DNA from: Escherichia coli
Lineage (GTDB): Bacteria > Pseudomonadota > Gammaproteobacteria > Enterobacterales > Enterobacteriaceae
NCBI RefSeq assembly: GCF_003334305.1
Contig: NZ_QOWS01000017.1
Direction: 5' to 3' (one strand)
DNA: 64,000 nucleotides
How positions within the stretch are numbered: position 1 is the stretch's first letter; every line of letters starts with the position of its first letter. Position numbers and translations under genes: made by a program. This document shows, piece by piece, positions 39,156 through 53,482 of the stretch. The notes under the pieces are model-generated. The model did no database searches and had not been told where the DNA came from. It saw only the letters and a list, made by a program, of their open reading frames with translations.

Positions 39156-39246
39156 TAAACCATTCTCGCCATTATCTACTATGAATTTCTCCAGCTATGA
39201 CTGTAGAGGTATCGGTTAAAGATAGATAATCATTTTTGAATAACTT

Positions 39247-39744: not shown

Positions 39745-40001
39745 CTTGTTCCCCTCTGGTTAGACATGGACGAAAGCTACTCTTACATGTGCAGACTATA
39801 GAGAAATAAAACCTGATTGAGTGAAAGGGTATCGGGTCAAAGAAACAAATATTGCACTACCGCACACTGCGAAAAGATTGTTGAACATCATTCAACAAAA
39901 AGGCGAAATACAGCGAATTAAATTTAAGCGGGTTCTTTTATCAGATTATCGTTGCTATTCTCAATTCATCGAAAACAGCCACAAAAACCAGGGGAATGTG
40001 A

Positions 40002-40607
40002 ATGAGTATAAAAAATCTACCTGCCGACTATTTATTGGCTGCACAACAGGGTGATATCGATAAAGTAAAAACCTGCCTTGCGCTGGGTGTCGATATTAAT
40101 ACCTGCGATCGTCAGGGGAAAACGGCAATTACGCTGGCAAGTTTATATCAGCAATATGCTTGCGTTCAGGCATTAATTGATGCCGGAGCGGATATTAATA
40201 AGCAAGATCATACCTGTTTAAATCCTTTTTTAATTAGCTGTCTGAACGATGATTTAACGCTACTACGAATTATTTTACCGGCTAAACCCGATCTTAATTG
40301 CGTAACCCGTTTTGGCGGTGTCGGCCTGACGCCTGCCTGTGAAAAAGGCCATTTAAGTATTGTAAAAGAGCTTTTGGCGCATACGGAGATTAACGTTAAC
40401 CAGACCAACCATGTAGGCTGGACGCCGCTACTGGAAGCGATTGTGCTTAATGATGGTGGTATTAAACAGCAGGCGATTGTGCAGTTATTGCTGGAACACG
40501 GTGCCAGCCCGCATCTGACCGATAAATATGGCAAAACGCCACTGGAACTGGCGCGGGAACGGGGCTTTGAAGAGATTGCGCAGTTACTGATTGCCGCAGG
40601 TGCATAA
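40002..40607 (+). CDS. yahD: ankyrin-repeat protein YahD
   Basis: 201 aa with repeated ankyrin units (..GKTAITLASLYQQYACVQALIDAGADIN.., ..GWTPLLEAIVLN.., ..GKTPLELARERGFEEIAQLLIAAGA). Confidence 0.9.
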   Translation: MSIKNLPADYLLAAQQGDIDKVKTCLALGVDINTCDRQGKTAITLASLYQQYACVQALIDAGADINKQDHTCLNPFLISCLNDDLTLLRIILPAKPDLNCVTRFGGVGLTPACEKGHLSIVKELLAHTEINVNQTNHVGWTPLLEAIVLNDGGIKQQAIVQLLLEHGASPHLTDKYGKTPLELARERGFEEIAQLLIAAGA

Positions 40608-40646
40608 ACCGGGAGGCTTGCTATCAACACACCAGAAAGACGGTGT

Positions 40647-41510
40647 GTGTGGGCGCTAACTGCGGATGCGGATTTTCTGGCGCAGCGGGGGCAAGGACAG
40701 GTTGAACAGGTCTTTGCCAGAGCGGTAAATATCGCACTCCCGGCTCGCCAGCAGTTGCTGACGCTGCTTTGTGAAGAGTACGACAATGCGCCAAACAGTT
40801 GTCGGTTGGCACTCACTCACTTTGATGATCTGTTCCGGCATGGTGATAAGGTTCAGTTTGACGATCAAGGTATTACGGTTGGTCAACATCTTCATATAGA
40901 GATGAGTCGTTGTCGGCGTTGGCTGTCCCCAACCTTGCAAATGACCGCTGTGAATTTTCACCTTATCGCCTGGCTACAGTGGCACGACATTATTCATCAG
41001 CACCTGGGGGAAAATGAAACCCTGTTTAATTATCGCGGCGATAATCCGTTTTATCAGGCGTTAAATAAAGAACTACATATTAAACGACGGGCAGTTATTC
41101 AGGCAGTAAACGAAAAACAAAATATCGCCGCAGCGGTCGCCAGTATGATTGGGTTAGGGATTGGCCTTACGCCATCAGCCGACGATTATTTAACAGGTCT
41201 GGCGCTTATTTTATTTATTCCCGGGCATCCGTCGGAAAAATACAAAGAGGAATTTTATCTCGGTATGCAGCGCGGCAGAAATAACACCACATTATTAAGT
41301 GCTATAACGCTGGAAGCCGCATTACAACAACGTTGCCGGGAAAATATTCATCGTTTTATTCACAACATTATTTATGACATCCCTGGGAACGCAACTCAGG
41401 CAATAGAAAAAATTAAACATATTGGCTCCAGTTCCGGCTGCGACATGCTGTATGGCATGGCCGATGGTTGTGCGCTGAGCCAAACCTACGGAGGGAATTA
41501 TGTCAGTTAA
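40647..41510 (+). CDS. yahE: DUF2877-family protein YahE (YlbF paralog)
   Basis: 287 aa with a GTG start. It lies upstream of and overlaps yahF by 11 nt. The family assignment is from memory. Confidence 0.8.
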   Translation: MWALTADADFLAQRGQGQVEQVFARAVNIALPARQQLLTLLCEEYDNAPNSCRLALTHFDDLFRHGDKVQFDDQGITVGQHLHIEMSRCRRWLSPTLQMTAVNFHLIAWLQWHDIIHQHLGENETLFNYRGDNPFYQALNKELHIKRRAVIQAVNEKQNIAAAVASMIGLGIGLTPSADDYLTGLALILFIPGHPSEKYKEEFYLGMQRGRNNTTLLSAITLEAALQQRCRENIHRFIHNIIYDIPGNATQAIEKIKHIGSSSGCDMLYGMADGCALSQTYGGNYVS

Positions 41511-43047
41511 AATAGTCATTAAACCGAATACCTATTTTGATTCTGTCTCGCTGATGTCTATCTCCACGCGTGCAAATAAACTCGACGGCGTCGAGCAGGC
41601 ATTTGTGGCGATGGCGACCGAAATGAACAAAGGTGTACTGAAAAATTTAGGACTGCTGACGCCGGAGCTGGAACAGGCGAAAAACGGCGACCTGATGATT
41701 GTCATCAACGGCAAAGCGGGCGCGGACAACGAACAGTTGCTGGTGGAGATTGAAGAACTGTTCAACACCAAAGCGCAAAGCGGCTCGCATGAGGCGCGTT
41801 ACGCCACTATTGCCAGCGCCAAAAAGCATATCCCGGAAAGTAACCTGGCGGTGATTTCGGTCAACGGTCTGTTTGCCGCTCGCGAAGCGCGTCAGGCGCT
41901 GCAAAACGATCTCAACGTGATGCTGTTTTCCGATAACGTCTCAGTTGAAGATGAATTGGCGCTCAAGCAACTGGCCCACGAAAAAGGGCTGCTGATGATG
42001 GGGCCAGACTGTGGCACGGCGATTATTAACGGCGCGGCGCTCTGTTTTGGTAACGCCGTGCGTCGCGGCAACATCGGTATTGTTGGCGCATCCGGCACCG
42101 GCAGCCAGGAGCTGAGCGTCCGCATTCATGAATTTGGCGGCGGCGTTTCGCAACTGATTGGCACCGGCGGGCGCGACCTGAGCGAGAAAATCGGCGGCCT
42201 GATGATGCTCGACGCCATCGGCATGCTGGAAAACGATCCGCAAACTGAAATCATTGTGCTTATCTCCAAACCGCCCGCGCCTGCGGTGGCCCGCAAAGTG
42301 CTGGAACGCGCGCGCGCCTGCCGCAAGCCGGTGGTGGTCTGTTTCCTCGGTCGTGGCGAAACGCCAGTGGATGAGCAGGGGCTACAGTTTGCCCGCGGCA
42401 GCAAAGAGGCGGCATTGAAAGCGGTGATGCTCTCCGGCGTGAAACAGGAACATCTCGACCTGCATACGCTGAACCAGCCGTTGATTGCTGACGTACGTGC
42501 TCGCCTGCAACCGCAGCAGAAGTACATTCGTGGCCTGTTCTGTGGCGGCACGCTGTGTGACGAAACCATGTTCGCGGTGATGGAAAAACACGGCGATGTC
42601 TACAGCAACATTCAGCCCGATCCGGAATTCCGCCTGCAAGATATCAACCGTAGCATCAAACACACCTTCCTCGACTTTGGCGATGACGACTTCACCAACG
42701 GCAAGCCGCATCCAATGATTGACCCCACCAACCGCATCAGTCGCTTGATCGAAGAGGCGCGCGATCCAGAAGTGGCGGTGATCGTGATGGATTTTGTGCT
42801 CGGATTTGGATCGCATGAAGATCCGGTCGGCTCCACCATTGAGGCGATCAAAGAAGCGAAAGCGATCGCCGCTGCCGAAGGCCGTGAGTTGATCATTCTC
42901 GCCTATGTGCTGGGCACCGATCTTGATACGCCATCATTAGAACAACAAAGCCAGATGCTGCTTGATGCCGGAGTGATTCTGGCGAGCAGCAGCACCAATA
43001 CCGGATTGCTGGCGCGTGAATTTATCTGCAAAGGGGAGGAAGCCTGA
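41500..43047 (+). CDS. yahF: FdrA-like acyl-CoA synthetase (NDP-forming)/succinyl-CoA-ligase-alpha-like protein YahF
   Basis: 515 aa with a CoA-ligase alpha-type core (..GNIGIVGASGTGSQE.., ..IGTGGRD..). GGAGGG lies upstream of the ATG. Confidence 0.88.
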   Translation: MSVKIVIKPNTYFDSVSLMSISTRANKLDGVEQAFVAMATEMNKGVLKNLGLLTPELEQAKNGDLMIVINGKAGADNEQLLVEIEELFNTKAQSGSHEARYATIASAKKHIPESNLAVISVNGLFAAREARQALQNDLNVMLFSDNVSVEDELALKQLAHEKGLLMMGPDCGTAIINGAALCFGNAVRRGNIGIVGASGTGSQELSVRIHEFGGGVSQLIGTGGRDLSEKIGGLMMLDAIGMLENDPQTEIIVLISKPPAPAVARKVLERARACRKPVVVCFLGRGETPVDEQGLQFARGSKEAALKAVMLSGVKQEHLDLHTLNQPLIADVRARLQPQQKYIRGLFCGGTLCDETMFAVMEKHGDVYSNIQPDPEFRLQDINRSIKHTFLDFGDDDFTNGKPHPMIDPTNRISRLIEEARDPEVAVIVMDFVLGFGSHEDPVGSTIEAIKEAKAIAAAEGRELIILAYVLGTDLDTPSLEQQSQMLLDAGVILASSSTNTGLLAREFICKGEEA

Positions 43048-44465
43048 TGAGCCAGTCACTGTTTAGCCAACCATTGAACGTTATTAACGTCGGCATCGCC
43101 ATGTTTAGCGATGATCTGAAAAAGCAGCATGTAGAAGTGACTCAACTCGACTGGACGCCGCCGGGGCAGGGCAATATGCAGGTGGTGCAGGCGCTGGATA
43201 ACATTGCCGATTCGCCGCTGGCAGACAAAATCGCCGCCGCTAACCAGCAGGCGCTGGAGCGCATTATCCAGTCGCATCCGGTGCTGATTGGTTTTGATCA
43301 GGCGATTAACGTGGTGCCGGGCATGACGCCGAAAACCATTCTTCACGCCGGGCCGCCGATCACCTGGGAAAAAATGTGCGGCGCGATGAAAGGCGCGGTC
43401 ACCGGGGCGTTGGTGTTCGAAGGGCTGGCGAAAGATCTCGATGAGGCGACTGAACTGGCGGCCTCCGGGGAGATCACCTTCTCGCCGTGCCACGAACACG
43501 ACTGCGTGGGATCGATGGCGGGCGTTACCTCGGCCTCGATGTTTATGCACATCGTGAAAAACAAAACCTACGGCAACATCGCTTATACCAATATGAGCGA
43601 GCAGATGGCGAAGATTTTGCGTATGGGTGCCAACGATCAGAGCGTGATCGACCGCCTCAACTGGATGCGCGATGTGCAGGGGCCAATGCTGCGCGACGCG
43701 ATGAAAATTATCGGTGAGATCGATCTGCGCTTAATGCTGGCGCAGGCGCTGCATATGGGCGATGAGTGCCATAACCGCAATAACGCCGGGACGACGCTGC
43801 TGATTCAGGCACTGACGCCGGGGATCATTCAGGCAGGCTATTCCGTCGAGCAACAGCGCGAAGTGTTCGAGTTTGTCGCCAGCAGCGACTACTTCTCCGG
43901 CCCGACGTGGATGGCGATGTGTAAAGCGGCGATGGATGCGGCGCACGGCATCGAATACAGCACCGTGGTCACCACCATGGCGCGTAACGGCGTCGAGTTC
44001 GGCCTGCGGGTCAGCGGCCTGCCGGGGCAGTGGTTTACCGGCCCAGCGCAGCAGGTCATCGGCCCGATGTTTGCTGGTTATAAGCCGGAAGATTCGGGGC
44101 TGGATATCGGCGACAGCGCCATCACAGAAACCTACGGTATTGGCGGGTTTGCCATGGCGACCGCGCCTGCAATCGTCGCACTGGTGGGCGGCACGGTGGA
44201 AGAGGCTATCGATTTCTCCCGTCAGATGCGCGAAATCACCCTTGGCGAAAACCCCAACGTCACCATTCCGCTGCTCGGTTTTATGGGCGTGCCGTCGGCA
44301 ATCGACATCACCCGCGTGGGTAGCAGCGGCATTCTGCCGGTGATCAACACCGCCATCGCCCATAAAGATGCGGGCGTCGGCATGATTGGCGCGGGCATTG
44401 TGCATCCACCATTCGCCTGCTTCGAGAAAGCCATTCTCGGCTGGTGCGAACGTTACGGCGTCTGA
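43047..44465 (+). CDS. yahG: DUF1116-family protein YahG (YlbE paralog)
   Basis: 472 aa. Its start overlaps the yahF stop (TGATG). The family assignment is from memory. Confidence 0.85.
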   Translation: MSQSLFSQPLNVINVGIAMFSDDLKKQHVEVTQLDWTPPGQGNMQVVQALDNIADSPLADKIAAANQQALERIIQSHPVLIGFDQAINVVPGMTPKTILHAGPPITWEKMCGAMKGAVTGALVFEGLAKDLDEATELAASGEITFSPCHEHDCVGSMAGVTSASMFMHIVKNKTYGNIAYTNMSEQMAKILRMGANDQSVIDRLNWMRDVQGPMLRDAMKIIGEIDLRLMLAQALHMGDECHNRNNAGTTLLIQALTPGIIQAGYSVEQQREVFEFVASSDYFSGPTWMAMCKAAMDAAHGIEYSTVVTTMARNGVEFGLRVSGLPGQWFTGPAQQVIGPMFAGYKPEDSGLDIGDSAITETYGIGGFAMATAPAIVALVGGTVEEAIDFSRQMREITLGENPNVTIPLLGFMGVPSAIDITRVGSSGILPVINTAIAHKDAGVGMIGAGIVHPPFACFEKAILGWCERYGV

Positions 44466-44478
44466 CTTACATGTTTAT

Positions 44479-44558
44479 GCCGGATGCGGTGTGAACGCCT
44501 TATCCGGCCTACGGATGGCCCGAGAATTGTAGGCCTGATAAGCGTAGCGCATCAGGCA
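44479..44558. repeat. BIME (two inverted REP elements) between yahG and yahI
   Basis: GCCGGATGCGGTGTGAACGCCTTATCCGGCCTAC and GTAGGCCTGATAAGCGTAGCGCATCAGGCA are classical REP sequences. Confidence 0.9.
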
Positions 44559-44607
44559 GTCTGGCGTTGGTCATAACCTAATCACCCTCTGTAGCGGACA
44601 TAACAAC

Positions 44608-45558
44608 ATGAAAGAGCTTGTGGTCGTTGCCATTGGTGGCAACAGCATTATCAAAGATAACGCCAGCCAGTCGATTGAGCATCAGGCGGAGGCGGTGAAA
44701 GCCGTGGCCGATACGGTGCTGGAAATGCTGGCTTCCGATTACGACATTGTGCTGACCCACGGTAACGGGCCGCAGGTCGGGCTGGATTTACGCCGTGCGG
44801 AGATTGCCCACGAGCGCGAAGGGCTGCCCTTAACGCCGCTGGCGAACTGTGTGGCAGATACGCAGGGCGGCATCGGCTATCTGATCCAACAGGCGCTGAA
44901 TAACCGGCTGGCGCGTCACGGCGAGAAAAAAGCCGTCACCGTGGTAACTCAGGTGGAAGTGGATAAAAACGATCCAGGTTTTGCCCATCCCACCAAGCCC
45001 ATTGGTGCATTCTTCAGTGAAAGCCAGCGTGACAAACTACAAAAGGCAAACCCTGACTGGTGTTTTGTTGAAGATGCCGGACGGGGCTATCGCCGCGTGG
45101 TCGCCTCGCCGGAACCGAAACGTATTGTCGAAGCACCCGCCATTAAGGCGCTGATCCAACAAGGTTTTGTCGTAATTGGCGCGGGCGGCGGTGGAATTCC
45201 GGTAGTGCGTACTGAAGCGGGGGATTACCAAAGCGTGGACGCGGTTATTGACAAAGATCTCTCTACCGCGCTGCTGGCCCGTGAAATTCACGCCGACATT
45301 CTGGTGATCACCACCGGCGTCGAAAAAGTCTGTATCCACTTTGGTAAACCGCAGCAGCAGGCGCTGGATCGGGTGGATATTGCCACCATGACTCGCTATA
45401 TGCAGGAAGGGCATTTTCCGCCCGGCAGCATGTTGCCAAAAATCATCGCCAGCCTGACGTTCCTGGAGCAGGGCGGCAAAGAAGTGATTATCACCACGCC
45501 GGAATGCCTGCCTGCGGCGCTGCGCGGTGAAACGGGCACCCATATTATTAAAACGTAA
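44608..45558 (+). CDS. yahI: carbamate kinase-like protein YahI
   Basis: 316 aa. MKELVVVAIGGNSI.., ..THGNGPQVG.., ..GAGGGGIPV.. are carbamate kinase / amino-acid kinase motifs. Confidence 0.92.
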   Translation: MKELVVVAIGGNSIIKDNASQSIEHQAEAVKAVADTVLEMLASDYDIVLTHGNGPQVGLDLRRAEIAHEREGLPLTPLANCVADTQGGIGYLIQQALNNRLARHGEKKAVTVVTQVEVDKNDPGFAHPTKPIGAFFSESQRDKLQKANPDWCFVEDAGRGYRRVVASPEPKRIVEAPAIKALIQQGFVVIGAGGGGIPVVRTEAGDYQSVDAVIDKDLSTALLAREIHADILVITTGVEKVCIHFGKPQQQALDRVDIATMTRYMQEGHFPPGSMLPKIIASLTFLEQGGKEVIITTPECLPAALRGETGTHIIKT

Positions 45559-45567
45559 GGACGTAGG

Positions 45568-46950
45568 ATGAAAGAAAGCAATAGCCGCCGTGAATTTCTG
45601 AGCCAGAGCGGTAAGATGGTCACCGCCGCCGCGCTGTTTGGTACCTCTGTGCCGCTCGCCCATGCGGCGGTAGCTGGCACCCTAAACTGCGAAGCGAACA
45701 ACACCATGAAAATCACTGACCCGCATTACTATCTCGATAACGTGCTGCTGGAAACCGGTTTTGACTACGAAAACGGTGTGGCGGTGCAGACCCGCACGGC
45801 GCGCCAGACCGTGGAGATTCAGGACGGCAAAATTGTCGCCCTGCGCGAGAACAAGCAGCATCCGGACGCCACGCTGCCGCACTATGACGCTGGCGGTAAG
45901 TTGATGCTACCCACCACTCGCGACATGCATATTCATCTCGACAAAACCTTCTACGGCGGGCCGTGGCGCTCGCTCAATCGTCCGGCAGGCACCACTATCC
46001 AGGACATGATCAAACTCGAGCAGAAAATGCTGCCGGAGTTACAACCGTATACGCAGGAGCGGGCGGAAAAACTGATCGATCTATTGCAGTCGAAAGGCAC
46101 CACCATTGCCCGCAGCCACTGCAATATCGAACCGGTTTCCGGCCTAAAAAATCTGCAAAATTTGCAGGCGGTGCTGGCGCGGCGTCAGGCGGGCTTCGAG
46201 TGTGAAATCGTCGCCTTCCCGCAGCACGGTTTGCTGCTGTCGAAATCGGAACCCTTAATGCGCGAAGCGATGCAGGCGGGTGCGCATTACGTCGGCGGGC
46301 TGGACCCGACCAGTGTTGATGGCGCGATGGAAAAATCCCTCGACACCATGTTTCAGATTGCGCTGGACTACGACAAAGGTGTCGATATTCACCTGCACGA
46401 AACCACTCCGTCGGGCGTGGCAGCCATCAATTATATGGTTGAAACGGTAGAGAAAACGCCGCAACTGAAAGGTAAGTTGACCATCAGCCACGCCTTTGCG
46501 CTGGCTACGCTCAACGAACAACAGGTCGATGCGCTGGCGAATCGGATGGCGGCGCAGCGAATTTCTATCGCCTCGACGGTGCCGATTGGCACGCTGCATA
46601 TGCCGCTCAAACAGTTGCACGACAAAGGCGTAAAAGTGATGACTGGCACTGACAGCGTTATCGACCACTGGTCGCCTTATGGTCTGGGCGACATGCTGGA
46701 AAAAGCCAATCTCTACGCGCAGCTCTATATTCGTCCTAACGAACAGAACCTCTCCCGTTCGCTGTTTCTAGCCACTGGCGATGTATTGCCGCTGAATGAA
46801 AAAGGCGAGCGTGTATGGCCAAAAGCGCAGGATGATGCCAGCTTTGTGCTGGTGGACGCCTCCTGTTCCGCCGAGGCGGTGGCGCGTATCTCGCCGAGAA
46901 CCGCAACGTTCCATAAAGGGCAACTGGTGTGGGGGAGTGTGGCAGGTTGA
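45568..46950 (+). CDS. yahJ: metal-dependent amidohydrolase/deaminase YahJ with twin-arginine signal peptide
   Basis: 460 aa. The Tat motif is SRREFLSQSGKMVTAAALFGTSVPLAHA. The amidohydrolase metal motif DMHIHLD and downstream HLHE / H..F motifs are present. Confidence 0.9.
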   Translation: MKESNSRREFLSQSGKMVTAAALFGTSVPLAHAAVAGTLNCEANNTMKITDPHYYLDNVLLETGFDYENGVAVQTRTARQTVEIQDGKIVALRENKQHPDATLPHYDAGGKLMLPTTRDMHIHLDKTFYGGPWRSLNRPAGTTIQDMIKLEQKMLPELQPYTQERAEKLIDLLQSKGTTIARSHCNIEPVSGLKNLQNLQAVLARRQAGFECEIVAFPQHGLLLSKSEPLMREAMQAGAHYVGGLDPTSVDGAMEKSLDTMFQIALDYDKGVDIHLHETTPSGVAAINYMVETVEKTPQLKGKLTISHAFALATLNEQQVDALANRMAAQRISIASTVPIGTLHMPLKQLHDKGVKVMTGTDSVIDHWSPYGLGDMLEKANLYAQLYIRPNEQNLSRSLFLATGDVLPLNEKGERVWPKAQDDASFVLVDASCSAEAVARISPRTATFHKGQLVWGSVAG

Positions 46951-47248
46951 TGCGCATTTGAAACGCCTGCAACGGTGAATTGTAAGAGATTTAAGCCCCA
47001 GGGAGTGGGGCGGGAATGGTTTGCTAATGAATGATCCTGAACTTTATAATCTCGCGGCATAATTTCCAGGGGATTATTTGAGAGAAATACACAAAAGTGA
47101 GTTTTAACAAAGGTATTTATCAGGCCATAAATGTGACCTGCTTCGGATAAAAAAGATTCAGTATCGAAAAACCAATGATACTCTTGCTGATGGTTACCAA
47201 CAGTAATTAAGATGTGATTTGTTTTTCCGTAATCGCAAAAATATTGCC

Positions 47249-47659
47249 ATGACCATAAAAGAAAAATTCTCACAAAAATATCCCCATGCTTCCTTTTGTA
47301 CTTTTGGCGATTCAGCAGCGTTGGCCGATCACCTCGCAACGTTGATTGCGACTGGTGTTAAAACAGCTTCCTGTGGTTCGCTGGCGGGATGTATTGAAGA
47401 CAACGCATTTCCGATGATTGGTGAGTATAAGATTGTAGAAAATAGCCGTGGTGAGCCTGTATGTGTTATCAGAGTGATTGGCCTGCATTTACTGCGCTTT
47501 TCTGATGTCACCGTGGAGCTTGCCCGTAAGGAAGGTGAAGGTGACCTCAGTCTTGAATATTGGCGTAATGAACACCGTCGTTTTTTCCAGGCAGAAGGAA
47601 GCTATTCACCAGAAATGGACGTTATATTTGAAGAATATGCCCTTATTGACGTTGTGTAG
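47249..47659 (+). CDS. ASCH-domain protein (COG4405/YhfF-like)
   Basis: 136 aa: MTIKEKFSQKYPHASFCTFGDSAALADHLATLIATGVKTASCGSL...VTVELARKEGEGDLSLEYWRNEHRRFF. The EGEGD-SL-WR-H pattern is typical of this ASCH subfamily. I do not remember it at this position in K-12. Confidence 0.7.
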   Translation: MTIKEKFSQKYPHASFCTFGDSAALADHLATLIATGVKTASCGSLAGCIEDNAFPMIGEYKIVENSRGEPVCVIRVIGLHLLRFSDVTVELARKEGEGDLSLEYWRNEHRRFFQAEGSYSPEMDVIFEEYALIDVV

Positions 47660-47909
47660 ATAACTATTTATCTACGCGAAATAAACTCACACACATAAAA
47701 TATCGCTAATTTTGTTTATTTTGCTATTTTTTACGTGATGAATGTCACACTTATTGTTGCTGCCCGTTTTGTCCATATTTATAACCATATTTTTAATAGC
47801 TGCCTGAAATAGGGCTGTTTATTCTGCATAAAAATATTCGAAAATTCTTATTCTCTCCAGCGCGCTAATTTGGGCGAACACTTCCTGACTACCCTGCAAT
47901 GAGGCTGAA

Positions 47910-48896
47910 ATGATGAATAAACGTTTTGTTATCAATATGGTGTCTTCGCTGTTATTAGGCGCTGCGCTAATTTCTGCGCCGCTCCAGGCAGCGGAAAAAG
48001 TCGTGGTGAATATCTCTAAAGTCGATGGTATGCCGTGGTTTAATCGCATGGGCGAAGGTGTGGTTGAGGCGGGTAACGCCTTTGGTGTTAATGCGTCACA
48101 GGTGGGGCCTTCAAGTACTGATGCTCCGCAACAAGTTAAAATTATTGAGGATTTAATCGCCCGTAAGGTTAATGCAATTACTATCGTGCCAAACGATGCC
48201 AACGTGCTGGAACCGGTATTCAAAAAAGCGCGAGATGCCGGAATTGTGGTTCTGACCAACGAATCCCCCGGTCAGCCAAGTGCTAACTGGGATATCGAAA
48301 TCATTGATAACGAAAAATTTGCCGCTGAATATGTTGAGCATATGGCGAAACGCATGGGGGGCAAGGGCGGCTATGTGATTTACGTGGGTAGTTTGACCGT
48401 GCCGCAGCATAACTTATGGGCTGACTTGCTGGTGAAATACCAGAAAGAGCATTACCCGGATATGCATGAAGTTACCCGCCGCATGCCGGTTGCCGAGAGT
48501 GTGGATGACTCACGTCGTACCACACTGGACCTGATGAAAACCTATCCTGACTTGAAAGCGGTTGTCTCCTTTGGTTCAAACGGTCCGATTGGCGCGGGAC
48601 GTGCGGTGAAAGAGAAACGGGCGAAAAATAAAGTCGCAGTCTATGGCATGATGATCCCTTCACAGGCGGCATCACTGATTAAAAGTGGTGATATCACCGA
48701 AGGGATTACTTACGATCCGGCCTCTGCAGGTTACGCACTCGCAGCCGTCGCCAGCACGTTGCTGAAGGGTGAAGAGATCAAACCTGGATTAGAAATGCAG
48801 AATCTGGGTAAGGCCGACGTAGATATGGATAAGCGAATTATCCGTTTCCATAAGGTATTACTGGTCAACAAAGACAATATCGACTCACTTTATTAA
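47910..48896 (+). CDS. periplasmic sugar-binding protein, LsrB/RbsB-like (PBP type I)
   Basis: 328 aa. The signal peptide MMNKRFVINMVSSLLLGAALISAPLQA is followed by AEKVVVNISKVDGMPWFNRMGEGVVEAG.., which is collinear with LsrB ([27 protein letters not shown]..). The C-terminus ..LLVNKDNIDSLY parallels LsrB ..VIFNKENIGKYDF. Confidence 0.8.
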   Translation: MMNKRFVINMVSSLLLGAALISAPLQAAEKVVVNISKVDGMPWFNRMGEGVVEAGNAFGVNASQVGPSSTDAPQQVKIIEDLIARKVNAITIVPNDANVLEPVFKKARDAGIVVLTNESPGQPSANWDIEIIDNEKFAAEYVEHMAKRMGGKGGYVIYVGSLTVPQHNLWADLLVKYQKEHYPDMHEVTRRMPVAESVDDSRRTTLDLMKTYPDLKAVVSFGSNGPIGAGRAVKEKRAKNKVAVYGMMIPSQAASLIKSGDITEGITYDPASAGYALAAVASTLLKGEEIKPGLEMQNLGKADVDMDKRIIRFHKVLLVNKDNIDSLY

Positions 48897-48906
48897 TCCA
48901 TTTCTT

Positions 48907-48922
48907 CGGGGCGAAAGCCCCG
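48907..48922 (+). other. intercistronic GAAA-tetraloop hairpin between the binding-protein and ATPase genes
   Basis: CGGGGC GAAA GCCCCG followed by ATTCTTATT. It is a likely mRNA-stabilising or attenuating element. Confidence 0.5.
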
Positions 48923-48944
48923 ATTCTTATTGCCAGGGGATGTT

Positions 48945-50429
48945 ATGGAAACTTTCCTTTCCCTTCGTCATATCAACAAAACGTTTCATGCCACGCGAGC
49001 GCTGCGCGATGTTTCTCTCGACTTTATGTCGGGTGAAGTGCACTGCCTTGCCGGGCAAAACGGCTGTGGTAAATCGACGTTGATTAAAATTATGTCCGGT
49101 GTTTATCGCCCGGATGAGGGAGCGGAAATTACGCTTGGTGGGAAAAACTGGTCAAAGCTGACACCCGCCGCTTCGGTGGCGCAGGGGATTCAGGTGATTT
49201 ATCAGGACCTCTCTTTATTTCCTAACCTGAGTGTCTGGGAGAATATCGCCGTGAATCACTATCACCACGGTCTGTTTGTTAACCGCCGTCGTCTGCGTGA
49301 GGTGGCGCAGGCGGCAATGACCAGTATTAACGTCACATTGCCACTGGATACACTCGTTTCTGAGCTTTCAATTGCCCGCTGTCAGCTGGTAGCAATTTGC
49401 CGTGCACTGGCGCAGGACGCACGGTTGATCGTGATGGATGAACCAACCGCTTCGCTGACCCATCAGGAAGTGCAAGGGTTATTACAGGTGGTGCATCAAT
49501 TGCGGGAACGCGGGATCTGCGTGGTCTTCGTCAGTCATCGTCTGGAAGAAGTGATGGAAGTTTCCGACCGTATTTCAGTGCTGAAAGATGGTGAGCTGGT
49601 CGGGACTTTTCCGGCTGCAGAGATGACCACAAAACAACTCGGTTTCCTGATGACCGGCCAGGAGTTCGAATATCAGGTGCGAGAGTTGTGGCAGGGAAAA
49701 TCCAGCACCCCGGTGCTTGAGGTGCGTAATTTAAGTCGTCATGGGGAATATCTAAATATTAACTTGCGGGTGGAAGCGGGCGAAGTGGTATCGATTGTTG
49801 GCCTGCTTGGTGCGGGGCGCACGGAATTATGTCTGAGTCTGTTTGGTATGACCCGACCGGATGCTGGCGAGATCCTCATCAACGGCCAGCCGGTTACACT
49901 GCATAGTAACCAGGACGCTATCCGCCACGGTATTGGTTATGTTTCGGAAGATCGCATGTCGCGCGGTTTGGTGATGGCGCAATCTATTGAAGACAACATC
50001 ATTAGCACTGTTTTTCACAAGGTAAAAGATCGCTTCGGCTTTCTGAGTGAAACTAAAGTTCGTGACCTGGTGGACAGGCTAATCAAGGCATTGACCATCA
50101 AAGTCTCTGATCCTCATCTTCCGGTGAATACGCTTTCTGGTGGTAACGCGCAGCGAGTATCGATCGCCAAATGGCTGGCGATTGGGCCACGACTGTTGAT
50201 TCTCGATAGCCCGACAGTCGGTGTTGATATCGCCAACAAAGCAGGAATATACGGCATTATCAGCGATCTGGCGGCTCATGGCATTGCGGTATTGATGATC
50301 TGCGATGAAATTGAAGAAGCGTGGTATCAAAGCCACCGGATTTTGGTAATGCAAAAAGGTCAGATCACCCATAGCTTCCTGCCTGACAGCAGTTCTCAGG
50401 CCAGGATTGCGGAGGTGGTAAATGGCTGA
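48945..50429 (+). CDS. CUT2-family sugar ABC transporter ATPase (fused double NBD)
   Basis: 494 aa from ATG 48945. NBD1 has Walker A GQNGCGKST and Walker B LIVMDEPT. NBD2 has GLLGAGRTE, LSGGNAQR and LILDSPT. Confidence 0.9.
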   Translation: METFLSLRHINKTFHATRALRDVSLDFMSGEVHCLAGQNGCGKSTLIKIMSGVYRPDEGAEITLGGKNWSKLTPAASVAQGIQVIYQDLSLFPNLSVWENIAVNHYHHGLFVNRRRLREVAQAAMTSINVTLPLDTLVSELSIARCQLVAICRALAQDARLIVMDEPTASLTHQEVQGLLQVVHQLRERGICVVFVSHRLEEVMEVSDRISVLKDGELVGTFPAAEMTTKQLGFLMTGQEFEYQVRELWQGKSSTPVLEVRNLSRHGEYLNINLRVEAGEVVSIVGLLGAGRTELCLSLFGMTRPDAGEILINGQPVTLHSNQDAIRHGIGYVSEDRMSRGLVMAQSIEDNIISTVFHKVKDRFGFLSETKVRDLVDRLIKALTIKVSDPHLPVNTLSGGNAQRVSIAKWLAIGPRLLILDSPTVGVDIANKAGIYGIISDLAAHGIAVLMICDEIEEAWYQSHRILVMQKGQITHSFLPDSSSQARIAEVVNG

Positions 50430-51393
50430 ACTGAAAAAACGCCATGAATTCTGGCTGGCATTACTGATTGTGGTGCTGTTTGTTGGCCTTGCCTGGCGCA
50501 GCGACGAGTTTCTGACATTCGGTAATTTGTACGATCTCGCCAATAACTATGCCATGTTGACTATTCTCGCCTGTGGTTTGTTTGTGGTGTTGATTTCCGG
50601 TGGAATTGATATTTCGTTTCCAGCAATGACCATCATTGCGCAATACGGCATGGTGCTGTTGCTGCAAAAAATTGGTGGCAACTTCGCTGTCGCGTTTGCA
50701 CTGGCGGGCTGCATCGGCATTTTACTTGGCTTAATTAACGCCTTACTGGTTAATCGCCTACGGGTGCCTTCTATCATCATCACTATCTCGACGCTGAATA
50801 TTTTCTATGGCCTGCTGTTATGGTTGAGTAAAGGTGTGTGGCTGTACGACTTTCCGCCGTGGTTTGAGCAGGGGGTTATGTTGTTCAAGTACACCGATGC
50901 TGATGGCTATGACTATGGCCTTGGTCTGCCGCTGATCGCCATGATTACGGTGGTGCTGCTAACAGCGTTTATCATGAATTTCACCAGTGTAGGGCGCAAA
51001 ATTTATGCCCTTGGCGGGAACCGCGAATCAGCCAGTCGCATCGGCTTTAGCGTGCTGAAACTGCAACTTTTCGTCTATGGCTATATGGGATTGATGTCTG
51101 GCGCTGCGGGTGTAGTGCAGTCGTGGACGGTGATGACTGTCGCCCCCGATTCTCTTCTGGGTTATGAGCTGACAGTACTGGCTGCGGTGGTGCTTGGCGG
51201 CACTAGTTTGCTCGGCGGGCGCGGCACGTTAACCGGTACTTTGCTCGGCGTGGTGTTGTTGGCAGTGATGCAAAACGGGCTAAATTTATTGGGAGTCTCG
51301 TCTTACTGGCAAACATTGATCACCGGCATCATCATCGTTGCCAGCATTAGTGCCACGGCGTGGAGTCAGCATCAGAACCGGAGTCTGCTATGA
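50422..51393 (+). CDS. sugar ABC transporter permease 1 (RbsC/LsrC-like)
   Basis: 323 aa, polytopic. Its start overlaps the ATPase stop by 8 nt (ATGGCTGA). It has the typical GGIDIS and GG(T/R)SLLGGRG motifs. Confidence 0.88.
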   Translation: MAELKKRHEFWLALLIVVLFVGLAWRSDEFLTFGNLYDLANNYAMLTILACGLFVVLISGGIDISFPAMTIIAQYGMVLLLQKIGGNFAVAFALAGCIGILLGLINALLVNRLRVPSIIITISTLNIFYGLLLWLSKGVWLYDFPPWFEQGVMLFKYTDADGYDYGLGLPLIAMITVVLLTAFIMNFTSVGRKIYALGGNRESASRIGFSVLKLQLFVYGYMGLMSGAAGVVQSWTVMTVAPDSLLGYELTVLAAVVLGGTSLLGGRGTLTGTLLGVVLLAVMQNGLNLLGVSSYWQTLITGIIIVASISATAWSQHQNRSLL

Positions 51394-52346
51394 AAAAATC
51401 GTGGCGTAATAACGTTGAGTTTTACTTGATCGGCCTGCTGGTGCTAACTGTTGCCGCGTTCAGCATTACTATGCCGGAGATTTTCTGGTCGATAAGTAAT
51501 TTCCAGTCCGTCGCTTCGCAAATGCCCGTGCTGGGCATTCTGGCGTTGGCTATGGCGGTGACCATGCTTTGCGGTGGCATTAACTTGTCAATTATAGCCA
51601 CTGCTAACGCCTGTTCACTGGTGATGGCGTGGGTGGCGACTCAGTATCCACCGGGTATTGCTACGGTTGTCGCTACGTTACTGGCGGGCGCTGGCGCGGC
51701 GGTGATAATCGGTTTATGTAACGGCGTATTGATTGCTGGTATTCGAGTGTCGCCAATTCTTGCAACGCTTGGGATGATGACGTTGCTCAAAGGGATAAAT
51801 ATTCTGGTGACAGGTGGTAGCGCCATTGCCAATTATCCCTCATGGGTGCTGTGGTTGAATCATGCGCAATGGTTCGGTATTCCGCTACCGATGTGGTTGT
51901 TTGCCGCAGTGGCACTGGGGCTATGGATATTGCTGGAGAAAACGCCGCTCGGTAAAGCCATTTACCTGATTGGGTCTAACGAACGAGCAACACTTTACTC
52001 CGGCATTAACACTCGTCGGGTGCTGATTTGGGTTTATGTCATTTCCGCCTTGCTTTGTGCGGTAGCGGCATTTTTGATGATGTCGAAACTCAACTCGGCT
52101 AAGGCCTCTTATGGCGAATCGTACTTGCTGGTGTCAATCCTCGCGGCAGTACTCGGTGGGGTTAATCCGGACGGCGGCAGCGGGCGGATAATTGGTATGG
52201 TGCTGGCGCTGTTTCTTCTGCAAATTATTGAAAGCGGCTTCAATATTCTCGGTATAAGCCCCTACCTGACGATGGCCTTATGGGGAACGTTGCTGCTCTG
52301 TTTCATTCAGGTTCGCGGCATGTTGGGGCTGGATCGGGTGGTTTAA
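51390..52346 (+). CDS. sugar ABC transporter permease 2 (RbsC/LsrD-like)
   Basis: 318 aa from the ATG at 51390 (MKKSWRNNVEFYLIG..). It has an ATGA overlap with the permease 1 stop. The track ORF begins 10 codons upstream. Confidence 0.85.
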   Translation: MKKSWRNNVEFYLIGLLVLTVAAFSITMPEIFWSISNFQSVASQMPVLGILALAMAVTMLCGGINLSIIATANACSLVMAWVATQYPPGIATVVATLLAGAGAAVIIGLCNGVLIAGIRVSPILATLGMMTLLKGINILVTGGSAIANYPSWVLWLNHAQWFGIPLPMWLFAAVALGLWILLEKTPLGKAIYLIGSNERATLYSGINTRRVLIWVYVISALLCAVAAFLMMSKLNSAKASYGESYLLVSILAAVLGGVNPDGGSGRIIGMVLALFLLQIIESGFNILGISPYLTMALWGTLLLCFIQVRGMLGLDRVV

Positions 52347-52432
52347 ATATTGGCTATATTCAATGGACGCGTTTTGCCGCGATGACATATCAGGCGTCGC
52401 CAAATACACATAGCTAATCAGGAGTAAACACA

Positions 52433-53482
52433 ATGAAGATCAAAGCTGTTGGTGCATATTCCGCTAAACAACCACTTGAACCGATGGATATCACACGGCG
52501 TGAACCGGGACCGAATGATGTCAAAATCGAAATCGCTTACTGTGGCGTCTGCCATTCCGATCTCCACCAGGTCCGTTCCGAGTGGGCGGGGACGGTTTAC
52601 CCCTGCGTACCGGGTCATGAAATTGTGGGGCGTGTGGTAGCCGTTGGTGATCAGGTAGAAAAACATGCGCCGGGCGATCTGGTCGGTGTCGGCTGCATTG
52701 TCGACAGTTGTAAACATTGCGAAGAGTGTGAAGACGGGCTGGAAAACTACTGTGATCACATGACCGGCACCTATAACTCGCCGACGCCGGACGAACCGGG
52801 CCATACTCTGGGCGGCTACTCACAACAGATCGTCGTTCATGAGCGATATGTTCTGCGTATTCGTCACCCGCAAGAGCAGCTGGCGGCGGTGGCTCCTTTG
52901 TTGTGTGCAGGGATCACCACGTATTCGCCGCTACGTCACTGGCAGGCCGGGCCGGGTAAAAAAGTGGGCGTGGTCGGCATCGGCGGTCTGGGACATATGG
53001 GGATCAAGCTGGCCCACGCGATGGGGGCGCATGTGGTGGCATTTACCACTTCTGAGGCAAAACGCGAAGCGGCAAAAGCCCTGGGGGCCGATGAAGTTGT
53101 TAACTCACGCAATGCCGATGAGATGGCGGCTCATCTGAAGAGTTTCGATTTCATTTTGAATACAGTAGCTGCGCCACATAATCTCGACGATTTTACCACC
53201 TTGCTGAAGCGTGATGGCACCATGACGCTGGTTGGTGCGCCTGCGACACCGCATAAATCGCCGGAAGTTTTCAACCTGATCATGAAACGCCGTGCGATAG
53301 CCGGTTCTATGATTGGCGGCATTCCAGAAACTCAGGAGATGCTCGATTTTTGCGCCGAACATGGCATCGTGGCTGATATAGAGATGATTCGGGCCGATCA
53401 AATTAATGAAGCCTATGAGCGAATGCTGCGTGGTGATGTGAAATATCGTTTTGTTATCGATAATCGCACACTAACAGACTGA
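52433..53482 (+). CDS. yahK: NADPH-dependent zinc alcohol/aldehyde dehydrogenase YahK
   Basis: 349 aa. The zinc ADH motifs GVCHSDLH and GHEIVGRV, the structural-Zn cluster CKHCEECEDGLENYC, and GIGGLGHMG (Rossmann) are present. Confidence 0.93.
   Translation: MKIKAVGAYSAKQPLEPMDITRREPGPNDVKIEIAYCGVCHSDLHQVRSEWAGTVYPCVPGHEIVGRVVAVGDQVEKHAPGDLVGVGCIVDSCKHCEECEDGLENYCDHMTGTYNSPTPDEPGHTLGGYSQQIVVHERYVLRIRHPQEQLAAVAPLLCAGITTYSPLRHWQAGPGKKVGVVGIGGLGHMGIKLAHAMGAHVVAFTTSEAKREAAKALGADEVVNSRNADEMAAHLKSFDFILNTVAAPHNLDDFTTLLKRDGTMTLVGAPATPHKSPEVFNLIMKRRAIAGSMIGGIPETQEMLDFCAEHGIVADIEMIRADQINEAYERMLRGDVKYRFVIDNRTLTD

What the first reader, a model, noticed from the sequence alone, without database searches (positions are those of the whole stretch)
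46951..52432. A 5.5-kb insertion between yahJ and yahK: an ASCH-domain gene plus an LsrB-like CUT2 sugar ABC transporter with no regulator, kinase or catabolic gene
K-12 has yahJ and yahK adjacent, from memory. Here the interval holds an ASCH protein and a tightly coupled four-gene operon of binding protein, fused ATPase and two permeases (8-nt and 4-nt overlaps). The binding protein is collinear with LsrB (AI-2) and Rhizobium RhaS-type proteins from signal peptide to C-terminus. The locus lacks lsrK/R/F/G-type genes, so the ligand and its fate are open. Candidates include AI-2 scavenging, a furanose or a deoxy-sugar. The only nearby enzyme candidates are YahK (aldehyde reductase) and the ASCH protein. 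No mobility genes or direct repeats are visible at the junctions.
Basis: partly seen in the sequence, partly recalled or inferred. Interest (0 to 1): 0.5.

Follow-up and report, generated by a model that had tools for sequence, protein, structure and literature searches.

The report
Known Aau D-ribulose transporter locus
The genes between yahJ and yahK are the published Aau ABC transporter of E. coli, which takes up the sugar D-ribulose under L-arabinose/AraC control, and K-12 lacks it because of deletions, so the finding is real but already explained.

Summary
An ASCH gene and a four-gene ABC operon (binding protein, fused ATPase, two permeases, 8-nt and 4-nt overlaps) lie between yahJ and yahK. 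K-12 has yahJ and yahK adjacent.

The operon is not uncharacterised. Its binding protein is 326/328 identical to AauA of EHEC (PDB 9I1M). It keeps all six D-ribulose contact residues. Cottam et al. (Nat Commun 2024, 2025) reported three things:
- Aau (Z0415-9, O-island 17) is induced by L-arabinose through AraC.
- AauA binds D-ribulose at about 2 µM.
- The imported sugar is phosphorylated by AraB.

The "missing" regulator and kinase therefore act in trans. The AI-2/LsrB reading fails: only one of six AI-2 contact residues is kept.

The "insertion" reading is reversed. K-12-type strains keep the 3' ends of the ASCH gene and of aauD in the yahJ-yahK spacer. The same scar is in 2759 of 5426 complete genomes, and the full locus is in 2208. 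Two divergent Escherichia lineages show an intermediate allele and a co-diverged one.

I add a predicted CRP plus AraC I1-I2 promoter. It is conserved across genera and laid out like ParaBAD. In 27 other species, relatives of the transporter sit beside araC. The ASCH gene appears unrelated to the transporter.

Novelty: already known. Interest: low.

The parts
45568..46950 (+). yahJ (amidohydrolase), the left flank. It is conserved whether or not the locus is present.
46948..47013 (.). Spacer after yahJ, also kept in K-12-type strains (62/63 plus 3/3 identical).
47014..47609 (.). Stretch missing from K-12-type strains (deletion 1, about 596 bp). It removes the ASCH upstream region and about 120 of 136 codons. 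It is present in 2214 of 5426 genomes.
47021..47050 (+). Sigma-70-like promoter candidate for the ASCH gene (TTGCTA-18-TATAAT). This is a consensus match only.
47249..47659 (+). ASCH-domain gene (136 aa, YhfF/COG4405 type). It is a separate unit and not part of Aau.
   Evidence: Pfam hit. PDB relatives 1T62 and 3S9X. Homologues are widespread in Enterobacterales. It is absent from all other Aau-type loci. It is intact in Escherichia sp. E2593, where aau is deleted.
47734..47749 (+). Predicted CRP site, cGTGAtgaatgTCACA. It lies 27 nt upstream of the start of the I1-like half-site.
   Evidence: Conserved block in the alignment of six genera. The offset is the same in Enterobacterales relatives and one nt longer in Pasteurellaceae. 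Compared with ParaBAD. This is an inference and has not been mapped experimentally.
47761..47777 (+). Predicted AraC half-site of I1 type, TGCCCGTTTTGTCCATA. The B-box TCCATA is intact and the A-box is weak.
47782..47798 (+). Predicted AraC half-site of I2 type, TAACCATATTTTTAATA. It lies 4 nt after I1, as in ParaBAD.
47820..47825 (+). Candidate -10 hexamer TATTCT, 21 nt after I2 (20 nt in ParaBAD). No good -35 is present, as expected for an activator-dependent promoter.
   Evidence: Sequence. Comparison. The generic scan found no sigma-70 consensus promoter here. This is an inference.
47754..52269 (.). Stretch missing from K-12-type strains (deletion 2, about 4.5 kb). It removes the AraC sites, the promoter, aauA, aauB, aauC and all but the last 77 nt of aauD.
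   Evidence: The same right breakpoint occurs in Escherichia sp. E2593.
47910..48896 (+). aauA, the periplasmic D-ribulose-binding protein (328 aa, with a signal peptide ending LQA/AE).
   Evidence: 326/328 identical to PDB 9I1M. Contact residues K37, W43, E118, H167, E196 and S223 are all present. Ligand data come from PMC12307932.
48945..50429 (+). aauB, the fused two-domain ABC ATPase. It is intact here but is a pseudogene with an internal stop in O157:H7 strain 86-24.
   Evidence: TUV93-0 is described as non-functional in PMC12307932.
50422..51393 (+). aauC, permease 1. It overlaps aauB by 8 nt.
51390..52346 (+). aauD, permease 2. It overlaps aauC by 4 nt. Its last 77 nt survive as a pseudogene fragment in K-12-type strains.
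52433..53482 (+). yahK (NADPH-dependent aldehyde reductase), the right flank. The published pathway does not involve it.

Best explanation
This is the Aau locus of E. coli (aauABCD, Z0415-Z0419, O-island 17). It encodes a CUT2-type ABC importer.

**How it works.**
1. The periplasmic protein AauA captures D-ribulose with micromolar affinity. It binds L-arabinose only weakly.
2. The operon has no regulator or kinase of its own because both act in trans.
3. AraC bound to L-arabinose, probably together with cAMP-CRP, activates a ParaBAD-like promoter upstream of aauA.
4. The AraC-controlled L-ribulokinase AraB phosphorylates the imported D-ribulose. The product enters the pentose phosphate pathway.

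**Basis of each step.**
- Published experiments on an essentially identical locus show AraC and L-arabinose dependence, D-ribulose binding and the crystal structure, Aau-dependent growth benefit, and AraB kinase activity.
- Sequence shown here establishes that the window locus is the same locus, with the binding pocket intact and the ATPase intact.
- Direct AraC and CRP binding at 47734-47798 is inferred here.

**History of the locus.** It is an old resident of this chromosomal position in Escherichia. K-12-type strains lost it by two internal deletions that left gene stubs.

**The ASCH gene.** It is an unrelated neighbour that was lost in the same allele.
For: **Identity with Aau.**
- AauA is 326/328 identical to PDB 9I1M.
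- All six D-ribulose contacts are present.
- Gene order and position match the O157:H7 annotation.
- The region between the ASCH stop and aauA (47660-47909) is 97.2% identical to that of O157:H7 strain 86-24.

**Function (published).**
- PMC11127945: promoter activity is induced only by L-arabinose, is abolished in an araC deletion mutant and is restored by araC in trans.
- PMC12307932: Kd is 1.98 µM for D-ribulose against 598 µM for L-arabinose. The paper also reports the structure, the Aau- and araBAD-dependent growth benefit and the AraB kinase assay.

**Promoter.**
- Upstream regions from six genera share only three blocks. These are a CRP-like site, TTTATCCATA (the I1 B-box), and TAGC four nt later (the I2 A-box).
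- The order matches K-12 ParaBAD and the spacings agree within 2 nt.
- The core pattern occurs upstream of aauA in 35 of 79 loci. The background rate is 0.003 per 320 nt.
- Copies in Pasteurellaceae are near-consensus and lie beside araC.

**Family link to the ara system.**
- araC (NCBIfam equivalog, 355 bits against a cutoff of 208) is adjacent in 27 loci.
- araB, araA or another FGGY-type kinase often accompanies it.
- All 80 binding proteins keep the six contact residues.

**Deletion polarity.**
- The K-12-type spacer equals window 46948-47013, plus 47610-47681 (ASCH 3' end, 67/72), plus a diverged 47697-47753, plus 52270-52435 (aauD 3' end, 162/166).
- RefSeq annotates the stub as a partial pseudogene.
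- The same scar is in 2759 genomes, including BL21 and Nissle.
- Escherichia sp. E2593 has an intact ASCH gene plus only the last 74 nt of aauD.
- A divergent Escherichia genome (L004) keeps aauABCD-yahK. Its aau genes are 91-93% identical in nucleotides and the flanks 82-90%.
Against: - No experiment was done on this strain. [quoted passage not shown]
- AraC and CRP binding are predicted, not mapped. The E. coli I1 A-box (TGCC) and I2 (TAAC...TTAATA) are weak matches. The generic 17-mer consensus with 3 mismatches is not enriched in the window.
- The transcription start site is unknown.
- The species-representative genomes of E. albertii and E. fergusonii were not among the 80 kept loci. How far back the locus goes in the genus is therefore unresolved, and an ancient horizontal arrival before E. 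coli diversified is not excluded.
- The published papers call the locus horizontally acquired.
Confidence: 0.93

Rival explanations
1. The system is an LsrB-type AI-2 scavenging transporter that lacks its lsrK/R/F/G partners.
For: - RefSeq names the binding protein "autoinducer 2 ABC transporter substrate-binding protein".
- There is distant similarity to LsrB structures (E about 1e-20 to 1e-23).
Against: - The NCBIfam LsrB equivalog scores 110 bits against a cutoff of 384.
- Aligned to E. coli LsrB (5GTA), only K35 of the six AI-2 residues is kept. D116 becomes E, D166 becomes Q, Q167 becomes H, P220 becomes F and A222 becomes S.
- The published criterion needs more than 63% identity and all six residues (PMC3386761).
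- The crystal structure holds D-ribulose.
Confidence: 0.01
2. The system is chiefly an accessory L-arabinose importer, as first named, and D-ribulose binding is a side activity.
For: - It is induced only by L-arabinose through AraC.
- Overexpression gives a weak growth gain on L-arabinose in an araE mutant.
- Relatives lie beside araC-araB-araA in Providencia and several Pasteurellaceae.
Against: - Affinity for D-ribulose is more than 200-fold higher (1.98 µM against 598 µM).
- The thermal shift is 16 degrees C for D-ribulose against 2 degrees C for L-arabinose.
- The D-ribulose co-crystal structure exists.
- Constitutive Aau gives no advantage on L-arabinose alone.
- The six D-ribulose contacts are invariant in all 80 relatives.
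Confidence: 0.08
3. The 5.5 kb is a horizontally acquired island inserted between yahJ and yahK in the lineage of this strain.
For: - The locus is absent from K-12 and from about half of complete genomes.
- G+C is lower (0.39-0.53) than in the flanks (0.55-0.58).
- Close homologues sit in unrelated contexts in Klebsiella, Franconibacter and Mangrovibacter.
- The papers call it horizontally acquired.
Against: - "Empty" sites hold the 3' ends of the ASCH gene and aauD, in order and orientation.
- An intermediate allele exists (E2593).
- In a divergent Escherichia genome, aau lies at the same place and its divergence is in line with that of the flanks.
- There are no mobility genes or flanking repeats.
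Confidence: 0.05
4. The ASCH protein is the missing enzyme that processes the imported sugar.
For: - It is adjacent and on the same strand.
- It is co-inherited with aau in E. coli (2214 genomes against 2208).
Against: - It is separated from aauA by a 250-nt regulatory region.
- It is never found next to an Aau-type transporter in the 78 other loci.
- It is kept intact where aau is deleted (E2593).
- Its homologues are stand-alone genes across Enterobacterales.
- The published locus is defined as Z0415-9 (binding protein, ATPase, two permeases), and the published pathway rests on aau plus araBAD.
Confidence: 0.03

Closest known systems
Aau (AauABCD, Z0415-Z0419, O-island 17) of enterohaemorrhagic E. 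coli; Cottam et al., Nat Commun 2024 (PMC11127945) and 2025 (PMC12307932); AauA structure PDB 9I1M
   Same: - It is the same locus at the same chromosomal position.
- AauA is 326/328 identical and all six ligand contacts are identical.
- The gene order is the same.
- The region between the ASCH stop and aauA is 97% identical to that of an O157:H7 strain.
   Different: - The window strain has an intact ATPase gene. EDL933-lineage strains (86-24, TUV93-0) carry an internal stop.
- There are two substitutions outside the pocket (N56K, D200V).
- The best genome match, strain A7 from an orangutan, gives no indication that this is an EHEC strain.
Rbl (RblABCD-RblK-RblI) D-ribulose utilisation locus of Citrobacter rodentium (PMC12307932)
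   Same: - It is a CUT2 ABC transporter for D-ribulose.
- Its subunits are about 60% identical to Aau, according to the paper.
   Different: - Rbl carries its own D-ribulokinase and an isomerase.
- It is induced by D-ribulose and not by L-arabinose.
- It lies in a different genomic context.
- I did not retrieve the Rbl sequences, so this comparison rests on the paper alone.
ParaBAD and the AraC regulon of E. coli K-12 (araBAD, araFGH, araE)
   Same: - The predicted layout is CRP site, then I1, then I2 as a direct repeat with a 4-nt gap, then a -10 hexamer about 20 nt further on.
- Dependence on AraC and L-arabinose has been shown experimentally in the literature.
   Different: - The half-sites are weaker than araI1.
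- Binding has not been mapped.
- The cargo is D-ribulose rather than L-arabinose.
LsrACDB AI-2 transporter and Rhizobium RhaSTPQ rhamnose transporter
   Same: - It belongs to the same CUT2 superfamily and the binding protein has the same fold (Peripla_BP_4).
- The operon layout is similar.
   Different: - Scores are far below both NCBIfam equivalog cutoffs (110 against 384, and 134 against 342).
- Five of the six AI-2 contacts are replaced.
- There are no lsrK/R/F/G genes and no rha genes.
PDB 3D02 (Klebsiella pneumoniae, deposited as "putative LacI-type transcriptional regulator")
   Same: It is an orthologue of AauA (phmmer E 1.8e-187). The Klebsiella genome copy (L056) is 91% identical and keeps all six contacts.
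   Different: - It sits in a different genomic context, with no yah genes or ASCH.
- Its deposited name is misleading.
- I know of no ligand or publication for this entry. A search for papers citing 3D02 found none.

Membership tests
Aau D-ribulose/L-arabinose ABC transporter (E. coli) | The binding protein is AauA (sequence of PDB 9I1M). | tested here: met
   326/328 identical over the full length, E 1.9e-213.
Aau D-ribulose/L-arabinose ABC transporter (E. coli) | The D-ribulose contact residues Lys37, Trp43, Glu118, His167, Glu196 and Ser223 are present. | tested here: met
   All six are present in the window protein. They are invariant in 80 relatives. The residue list comes from PMC12307932.
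Aau D-ribulose/L-arabinose ABC transporter (E. coli) | The operon is binding protein, fused ATPase, then two permeases, with no local regulator or kinase. It occupies the same position as the O157:H7 locus, which the paper calls Z0415-9 on O-island 17. | tested here: met
Aau D-ribulose/L-arabinose ABC transporter (E. coli) | Transcription depends on AraC and L-arabinose. | not testable with these tools
   This was shown for EHEC in PMC11127945. Here there is sequence support only. The region between the ASCH stop and aauA is 97.2% identical to the O157:H7 copy. CRP, I1 and I2-like sites are conserved across genera.
Aau D-ribulose/L-arabinose ABC transporter (E. coli) | The imported D-ribulose is phosphorylated by AraB. 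| not testable with these tools
   This is published. araBAD lies outside the window.
LsrB/Lsr AI-2 uptake system | More than 63% identity to S. Typhimurium LsrB, with all six AI-2 residues kept (K35, D116, D166, Q167, P220, A222). | tested here: not met
   Only K35 is kept, and the other five are E, Q, H, F and S. The NCBIfam LsrB score is 110 bits against a cutoff of 384. The criterion comes from PMC3386761.
LsrB/Lsr AI-2 uptake system | lsrK, lsrR, lsrF and lsrG accompany the transporter. | tested here: not met
   None lies between yahI and yahN.
RhaSTPQ rhamnose ABC transporter | The binding protein reaches the TIGR02637 RhaS equivalog cutoff. | tested here: not met
   133.7 bits against a cutoff of 342.25.
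CUT2 family of ABC sugar importers (TC 3.A.1.2) | A Peripla_BP_4 binding protein, one ATPase with two ABC domains, and BPD_transp_2 permeases. | tested here: met
   Pfam hits. Best NCBIfam matches are AraG/YtfR/XylG and AraH/RbsC, all below their equivalog cutoffs.
Horizontally inserted genomic island | The empty site is clean, and the island has flanking direct repeats or att sites, integrase or transposase genes, or an adjacent tRNA. | tested here: not met
   Empty sites hold stubs of the ASCH gene and aauD. There are no mobility genes or flanking repeats. No tRNA scan was run.
ASCH domain proteins (Pfam PF04266; YhfF/COG4405 type) | The ASCH domain is above the Pfam gathering score. | tested here: met
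   78 bits against a cutoff of 21.2. Relatives are PDB 1T62 and 3S9X. Sources name homologues YhfF.
YqfB-type N4-acylcytidine amidohydrolases (an ASCH subgroup) | The protein carries the catalytic residues of YqfB and has that activity. | not tested
   I did not compare it with YqfB. This idea comes from memory only.

The most novel reading that the evidence does not exclude
Aau-type D-ribulose transporters may be ancient members of the AraC regulon across Enterobacterales and Pasteurellaceae, rather than an EHEC-specific acquisition that "hijacks" the arabinose system.

- A CRP-I1-I2 promoter module with fixed geometry travels with the operon.
- In many genera the operon lies beside araC, araB/araA or another FGGY-type kinase.
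- The binding pocket is invariant.

In Escherichia the locus would then be ancestral at yahK. Its absence from K-12, BL21, Nissle and about half of E. coli would be a stepwise deletion allele: aau lost first, then the ASCH gene. That allele is shared with a cryptic Escherichia lineage, which makes it an old presence/absence polymorphism.
Probability: 0.6. Interest if true: 0.3.

Novelty: already known. Interest (0 to 1): 0.15.

Why it matters
For the scan, this is a correct observation of a locus whose ligand, regulator and downstream enzyme were published in 2024-2025. It should not be carried forward as an open question.

Three modest points may interest people working on Aau:
- The "O-island" is a deletion in K-12-type strains, not an insertion in pathogens. 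This changes how its association with LEE-positive lineages should be read: as retention rather than acquisition.
- There is a concrete, testable AraC/CRP site prediction for Paau.
- Homologues with an identical binding pocket lie inside ara gene clusters in Pasteurellaceae and Providencia. This suggests that gating D-ribulose uptake by L-arabinose is widespread.

The RefSeq product name "autoinducer 2 ABC transporter substrate-binding protein" for this protein is misleading.

Tried and rejected
- **Generic AraC consensus scan.** A scan of the whole window for TAGC-N7-TCCATA with 3 mismatches gave 413 hits against 415 expected. It was uninformative. I replaced it with a cross-genus alignment and a stricter two-half-site pattern.
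- **Generic promoter and terminator scan.** It found no sigma-70 consensus promoter upstream of aauA and no intrinsic terminator in 46900-48000. This fits an activator-dependent promoter but proves nothing.
- **ASCH homologue P0011.** At 77% identity it looked like an outgroup copy. Its contig is ordinary E. coli (97% nt identity) with many indels, so I discarded it.
- **Repeat search at the junctions.** It returned only short, low-identity pairs, including a 25-nt, 76% inverted pair near the aauD breakpoint that I treat as chance.
- **AI-2, rhamnose, ribose and allose assignments.** I rejected them on equivalog scores and, for AI-2, on contact residues.
- **Structure prediction and fold search.** I did not run them, because a crystal structure of the same protein exists.

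Full report
**Observation**

After yahJ (45568-46950), all on the + strand, come:
- an ASCH-domain gene (47249-47659; Pfam PF04266, 78 bits);
- a 250-nt non-coding stretch;
- a Peripla_BP_4 binding protein (47910-48896);
- a fused two-domain ABC ATPase (48945-50429);
- two BPD_transp_2 permeases (50422-51393 and 51390-52346), with 8-nt and 4-nt overlaps;
- yahK (52433-53482).

RefSeq annotation of an O157:H7 genome shows the same six genes in the same order. In K-12 MG1655, yahJ and yahK are neighbours separated by 376 nt. The interval has no regulator, kinase, catabolic or mobility gene. A repeat search found only short chance-like pairs.

**What it is**

A sequence search of the Protein Data Bank with the binding protein returned 9I1M, 328 residues, 326 identical. 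The only papers in the library that cite this entry are Cottam et al., Nat Commun 2025 (PMC12307932) and its preprint. The protein is AauA, the binding protein of the accessory L-arabinose uptake (Aau) system of enterohaemorrhagic E. coli.

The first paper (PMC11127945) defines the locus as Z0415-Z0419 on O-island 17. It reports that the promoter responds only to L-arabinose, is silent in an araC deletion mutant and is restored by araC in trans.

The second paper reports:
- AauA binds D-ribulose with Kd 1.98 µM, against 598 µM for L-arabinose.
- The crystal structure holds alpha-D-ribulose between Trp43 and His167, with hydrogen bonds from Lys37, Glu118, Glu196 and Ser223.
- D-ribulose does not induce the operon.
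- D-ribulose improves growth only when L-arabinose is present.
- That benefit needs both aau and araBAD.
- Purified AraB shows kinase activity on D-ribulose.

All six contact residues are present in the window protein. The two differences from 9I1M (N56K, D200V) lie elsewhere. The ATPase gene is intact here. In O157:H7 strain 86-24 it has an internal stop, which agrees with the paper's remark that TUV93-0 has a non-functional Aau.

The ligand is D-ribulose, the regulator is AraC and the kinase is AraB, and both proteins are encoded elsewhere.

**Rejected assignments**

RefSeq names the protein "autoinducer 2 ABC transporter substrate-binding protein". The NCBIfam LsrB equivalog scores 110 bits against a cutoff of 384, and the RhaS equivalog 134 against 342.

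In the alignment to E. coli LsrB (PDB 5GTA), the six AI-2 contact residues listed in PMC3386761 compare as follows:

| LsrB residue | AauA residue |
|---|---|
| K35 | K |
| D116 | E |
| D166 | Q |
| Q167 | H |
| P220 | F |
| A222 | S |

Only one is kept, so the AI-2 reading is not supported.

**Polarity: a deletion in K-12, not an insertion here**

RefSeq annotates a 75-nt "incomplete, missing N-terminus" pseudogene in the yahJ-yahK spacer of a K-12-type strain (BE104). Aligning that spacer to the window resolves it into four pieces:
- window 46948-47013 (65/66 identical);
- window 47610-47681, the last 50 nt of the ASCH gene and what follows (67/72);
- a diverged copy of 47697-47753, which ends just after the CRP-like site;
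- window 52270-52435, the last 77 nt of aauD plus the spacer to yahK (162/166).

Gene stubs in the right order and orientation can only be what two deletions left behind. The missing stretches are about 47014-47609 and 47754-52269.

The same scar covers at least 80% of a 401-nt query in 2759 of 5426 complete genomes, at 94.8-100% identity, including BL21 and Nissle. The full locus is in 2208 genomes and the ASCH 5' part in 2214. E. coli therefore carries essentially two old alleles.

Two further genomes extend the picture.
- **Escherichia sp. E2593.** It has yahJ, an intact ASCH gene, only the last 74 nt of aauD, and then yahK. The right breakpoint is the same as in the K-12 scar. This looks like the intermediate step: aau lost first, ASCH later.
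- **A divergent Escherichia genome (L004, labelled E. coli SCPM-O-B-8794).** It keeps aauABCD-yahK-yahL but has lost yahB through most of ASCH. The junction shows a 9-10 nt microhomology. Its aau genes are 91-93% identical in nucleotides to the window, and its flanking genes are 82-90% identical. The operon has therefore diverged along with its neighbours.

The locus predates the split of these lineages at this position. How it first reached Escherichia is open. The representative genomes of E. albertii and E. fergusonii were not among the 80 kept loci, and I could not inspect their yahJ-yahK junctions.

**Promoter**

Neither paper reports a binding site. I aligned the region upstream of aauA from E. 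coli, the divergent Escherichia, Franconibacter, Mangrovibacter, Buttiauxella, Symbiopectobacterium and Klebsiella. None of these has a regulator next to the operon. Only three blocks are conserved:
- a CRP-like site (window 47734-47749, cGTGAtgaatgTCACA);
- TTT(A/G)TCCATA (window I1-like half-site, 47761-47777);
- four nt further on, TAGC (TAAC in E. coli; I2-like half-site, 47782-47798).

The table compares the layout with K-12 ParaBAD.

| Feature | ParaBAD | Paau |
|---|---|---|
| CRP site start to I1 start | 29 nt | 27 nt |
| Gap between I1 and I2 | 4 nt | 4 nt |
| I2 end to -10 hexamer | 20 nt | 21 nt |
| -10 hexamer | TACTGT | TATTCT (47820-47825) |

A strict pattern for the I1-I2 junction (TCCAT[AT]-N4-[TC]A[GA]C) occurs upstream of aauA in 35 of 79 related loci. 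The background rate is 0.003 per 320 nt in the rest of those loci. In Enterobacterales the CRP-like site is always 27 nt before I1, and in Pasteurellaceae 28 nt. The Pasteurellaceae copies are near-consensus (TAGCAGAATTTTCCATA-N4-TAACAAAAATTTACCTA).

I infer direct activation by AraC with CRP. This has not been demonstrated. The E. coli half-sites are weak, and a loose single half-site scan is not informative.

**The wider family**

A scan of one genome per species found 205 relatives, of which 80 loci were kept. All have the four-gene layout where the contig allows. All 80 binding proteins, down to 68% identity, keep the six D-ribulose contacts.

Clustering of flanking genes, followed by NCBIfam scoring, gave these results:
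- araC is adjacent in 27 loci, in Pasteurellaceae, Providencia, Limnobaculum, Budvicia and Vibrio (355 bits against a cutoff of 208).
- araB accompanies the transporter in 7 loci (753 bits against a cutoff of 428).
- araA accompanies it in 5 loci (793 bits against a cutoff of 622).
- An unassigned FGGY-type kinase is directly downstream in 15 loci.

The link between this transporter family and the arabinose system is thus old and widespread. It is not peculiar to EHEC.

**The ASCH gene**

- It is a 136-aa YhfF/COG4405-type ASCH protein. Its PDB relatives are 1T62 and 3S9X.
- Homologues are stand-alone genes across Enterobacterales.
- None of the 78 other Aau-type loci has one nearby.
- It survives intact in E2593, where aau is gone.
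- The published locus is defined as Z0415-9 only, and the published pathway rests on aau and araBAD.

I regard it as an unrelated neighbour. Its own function remains unknown.

**Verdict**

The system is the published Aau D-ribulose transporter, so the novelty class is "already known" and the interest is low.

Its own refutation criterion (known specificity, catabolic genes elsewhere) is met.

Three points go beyond the two papers I read: the deletion scars and the intermediate allele, the conserved CRP-I1-I2 module, and the araC-linked homologues with an identical pocket. They are modest and all can be tested directly.

Noticed in passing
L001 5946-7430 (O157:H7 strain 86-24), corresponding to window 48945-50429: In this O157:H7 genome the Aau ATPase gene is annotated as a pseudogene with an internal stop, whereas the window copy is intact. 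This matches the paper's statement that the EDL933 derivative TUV93-0 has a non-functional Aau.
   Followed up: partly
window about 38300-46950 (yahB-yahJ); Pfam labels seen on L084 2265-8681: The yahE, yahF and yahG products hit Pfam families named AllH, AllF_N and AllG. They are followed by a carbamate-kinase-like YahI and the amidohydrolase YahJ. The cluster therefore looks like a paralogue of the allantoin-pathway allFGH/carbamate kinase genes, and its substrate appears uncharacterised.
   Followed up: no
L004 7630-7680, against window 38270-38281 and 47556-47567: In a divergent Escherichia genome, pdeL (yahA) is joined directly to the last 100 nt of the ASCH gene. The junction lies at a shared TTGGCG(C/T)AA microhomology. 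This is an independent 9.3-kb deletion of yahB-yahJ and most of ASCH that spared aauABCD.
   Followed up: partly
L003 (SFEK01000152.1, labelled as a Bacteroidales MAG): This 4.7-kb contig is binned as Bacteroidales. Its four Aau proteins are 99-100% identical in amino acids to the window's. It is almost certainly E. coli DNA that was mis-binned.
   Followed up: no
RefSeq product names under hits H1-H13; PDB 3D02: The binding protein is named "autoinducer 2 ABC transporter substrate-binding protein" across E. coli RefSeq genomes. Its Klebsiella orthologue in the PDB is named "putative LacI-type transcriptional regulator". Both names conflict with the D-ribulose evidence.
   Followed up: yes
10-11 matching places on plasmid records: A few records typed as plasmids in complete E. 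coli assemblies carry matches to the yahJ-yahK region. I did not check whether these are large chromosome-like replicons or mis-assignments.
   Followed up: no
L057, L062-L082: gene directly downstream of the second permease (for example L057 12346-13941): In 15 Pasteurellaceae loci a 531-aa FGGY-type kinase follows the transporter. It has only a weak XylB match (100 bits against a cutoff of 380), and araC lies upstream. It is a candidate dedicated ribulokinase of unknown stereospecificity.
   Followed up: partly
window 46897-46921 and 52275-52299: A 25-nt inverted pair, 76% complementary, has one arm in the 3' end of yahJ and the other at the aauD deletion breakpoint. It is probably chance, but it sits exactly where the K-12 deletion ends.
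   Followed up: no
L086 (GCA_046507365.1): This assembly carries the whole yahD-yahK region at 97% identity to the window but with 207 gap positions. Nearly every gene is split into fragments. It looks like uncorrected long-read error rather than real pseudogenes.
   Followed up: partly
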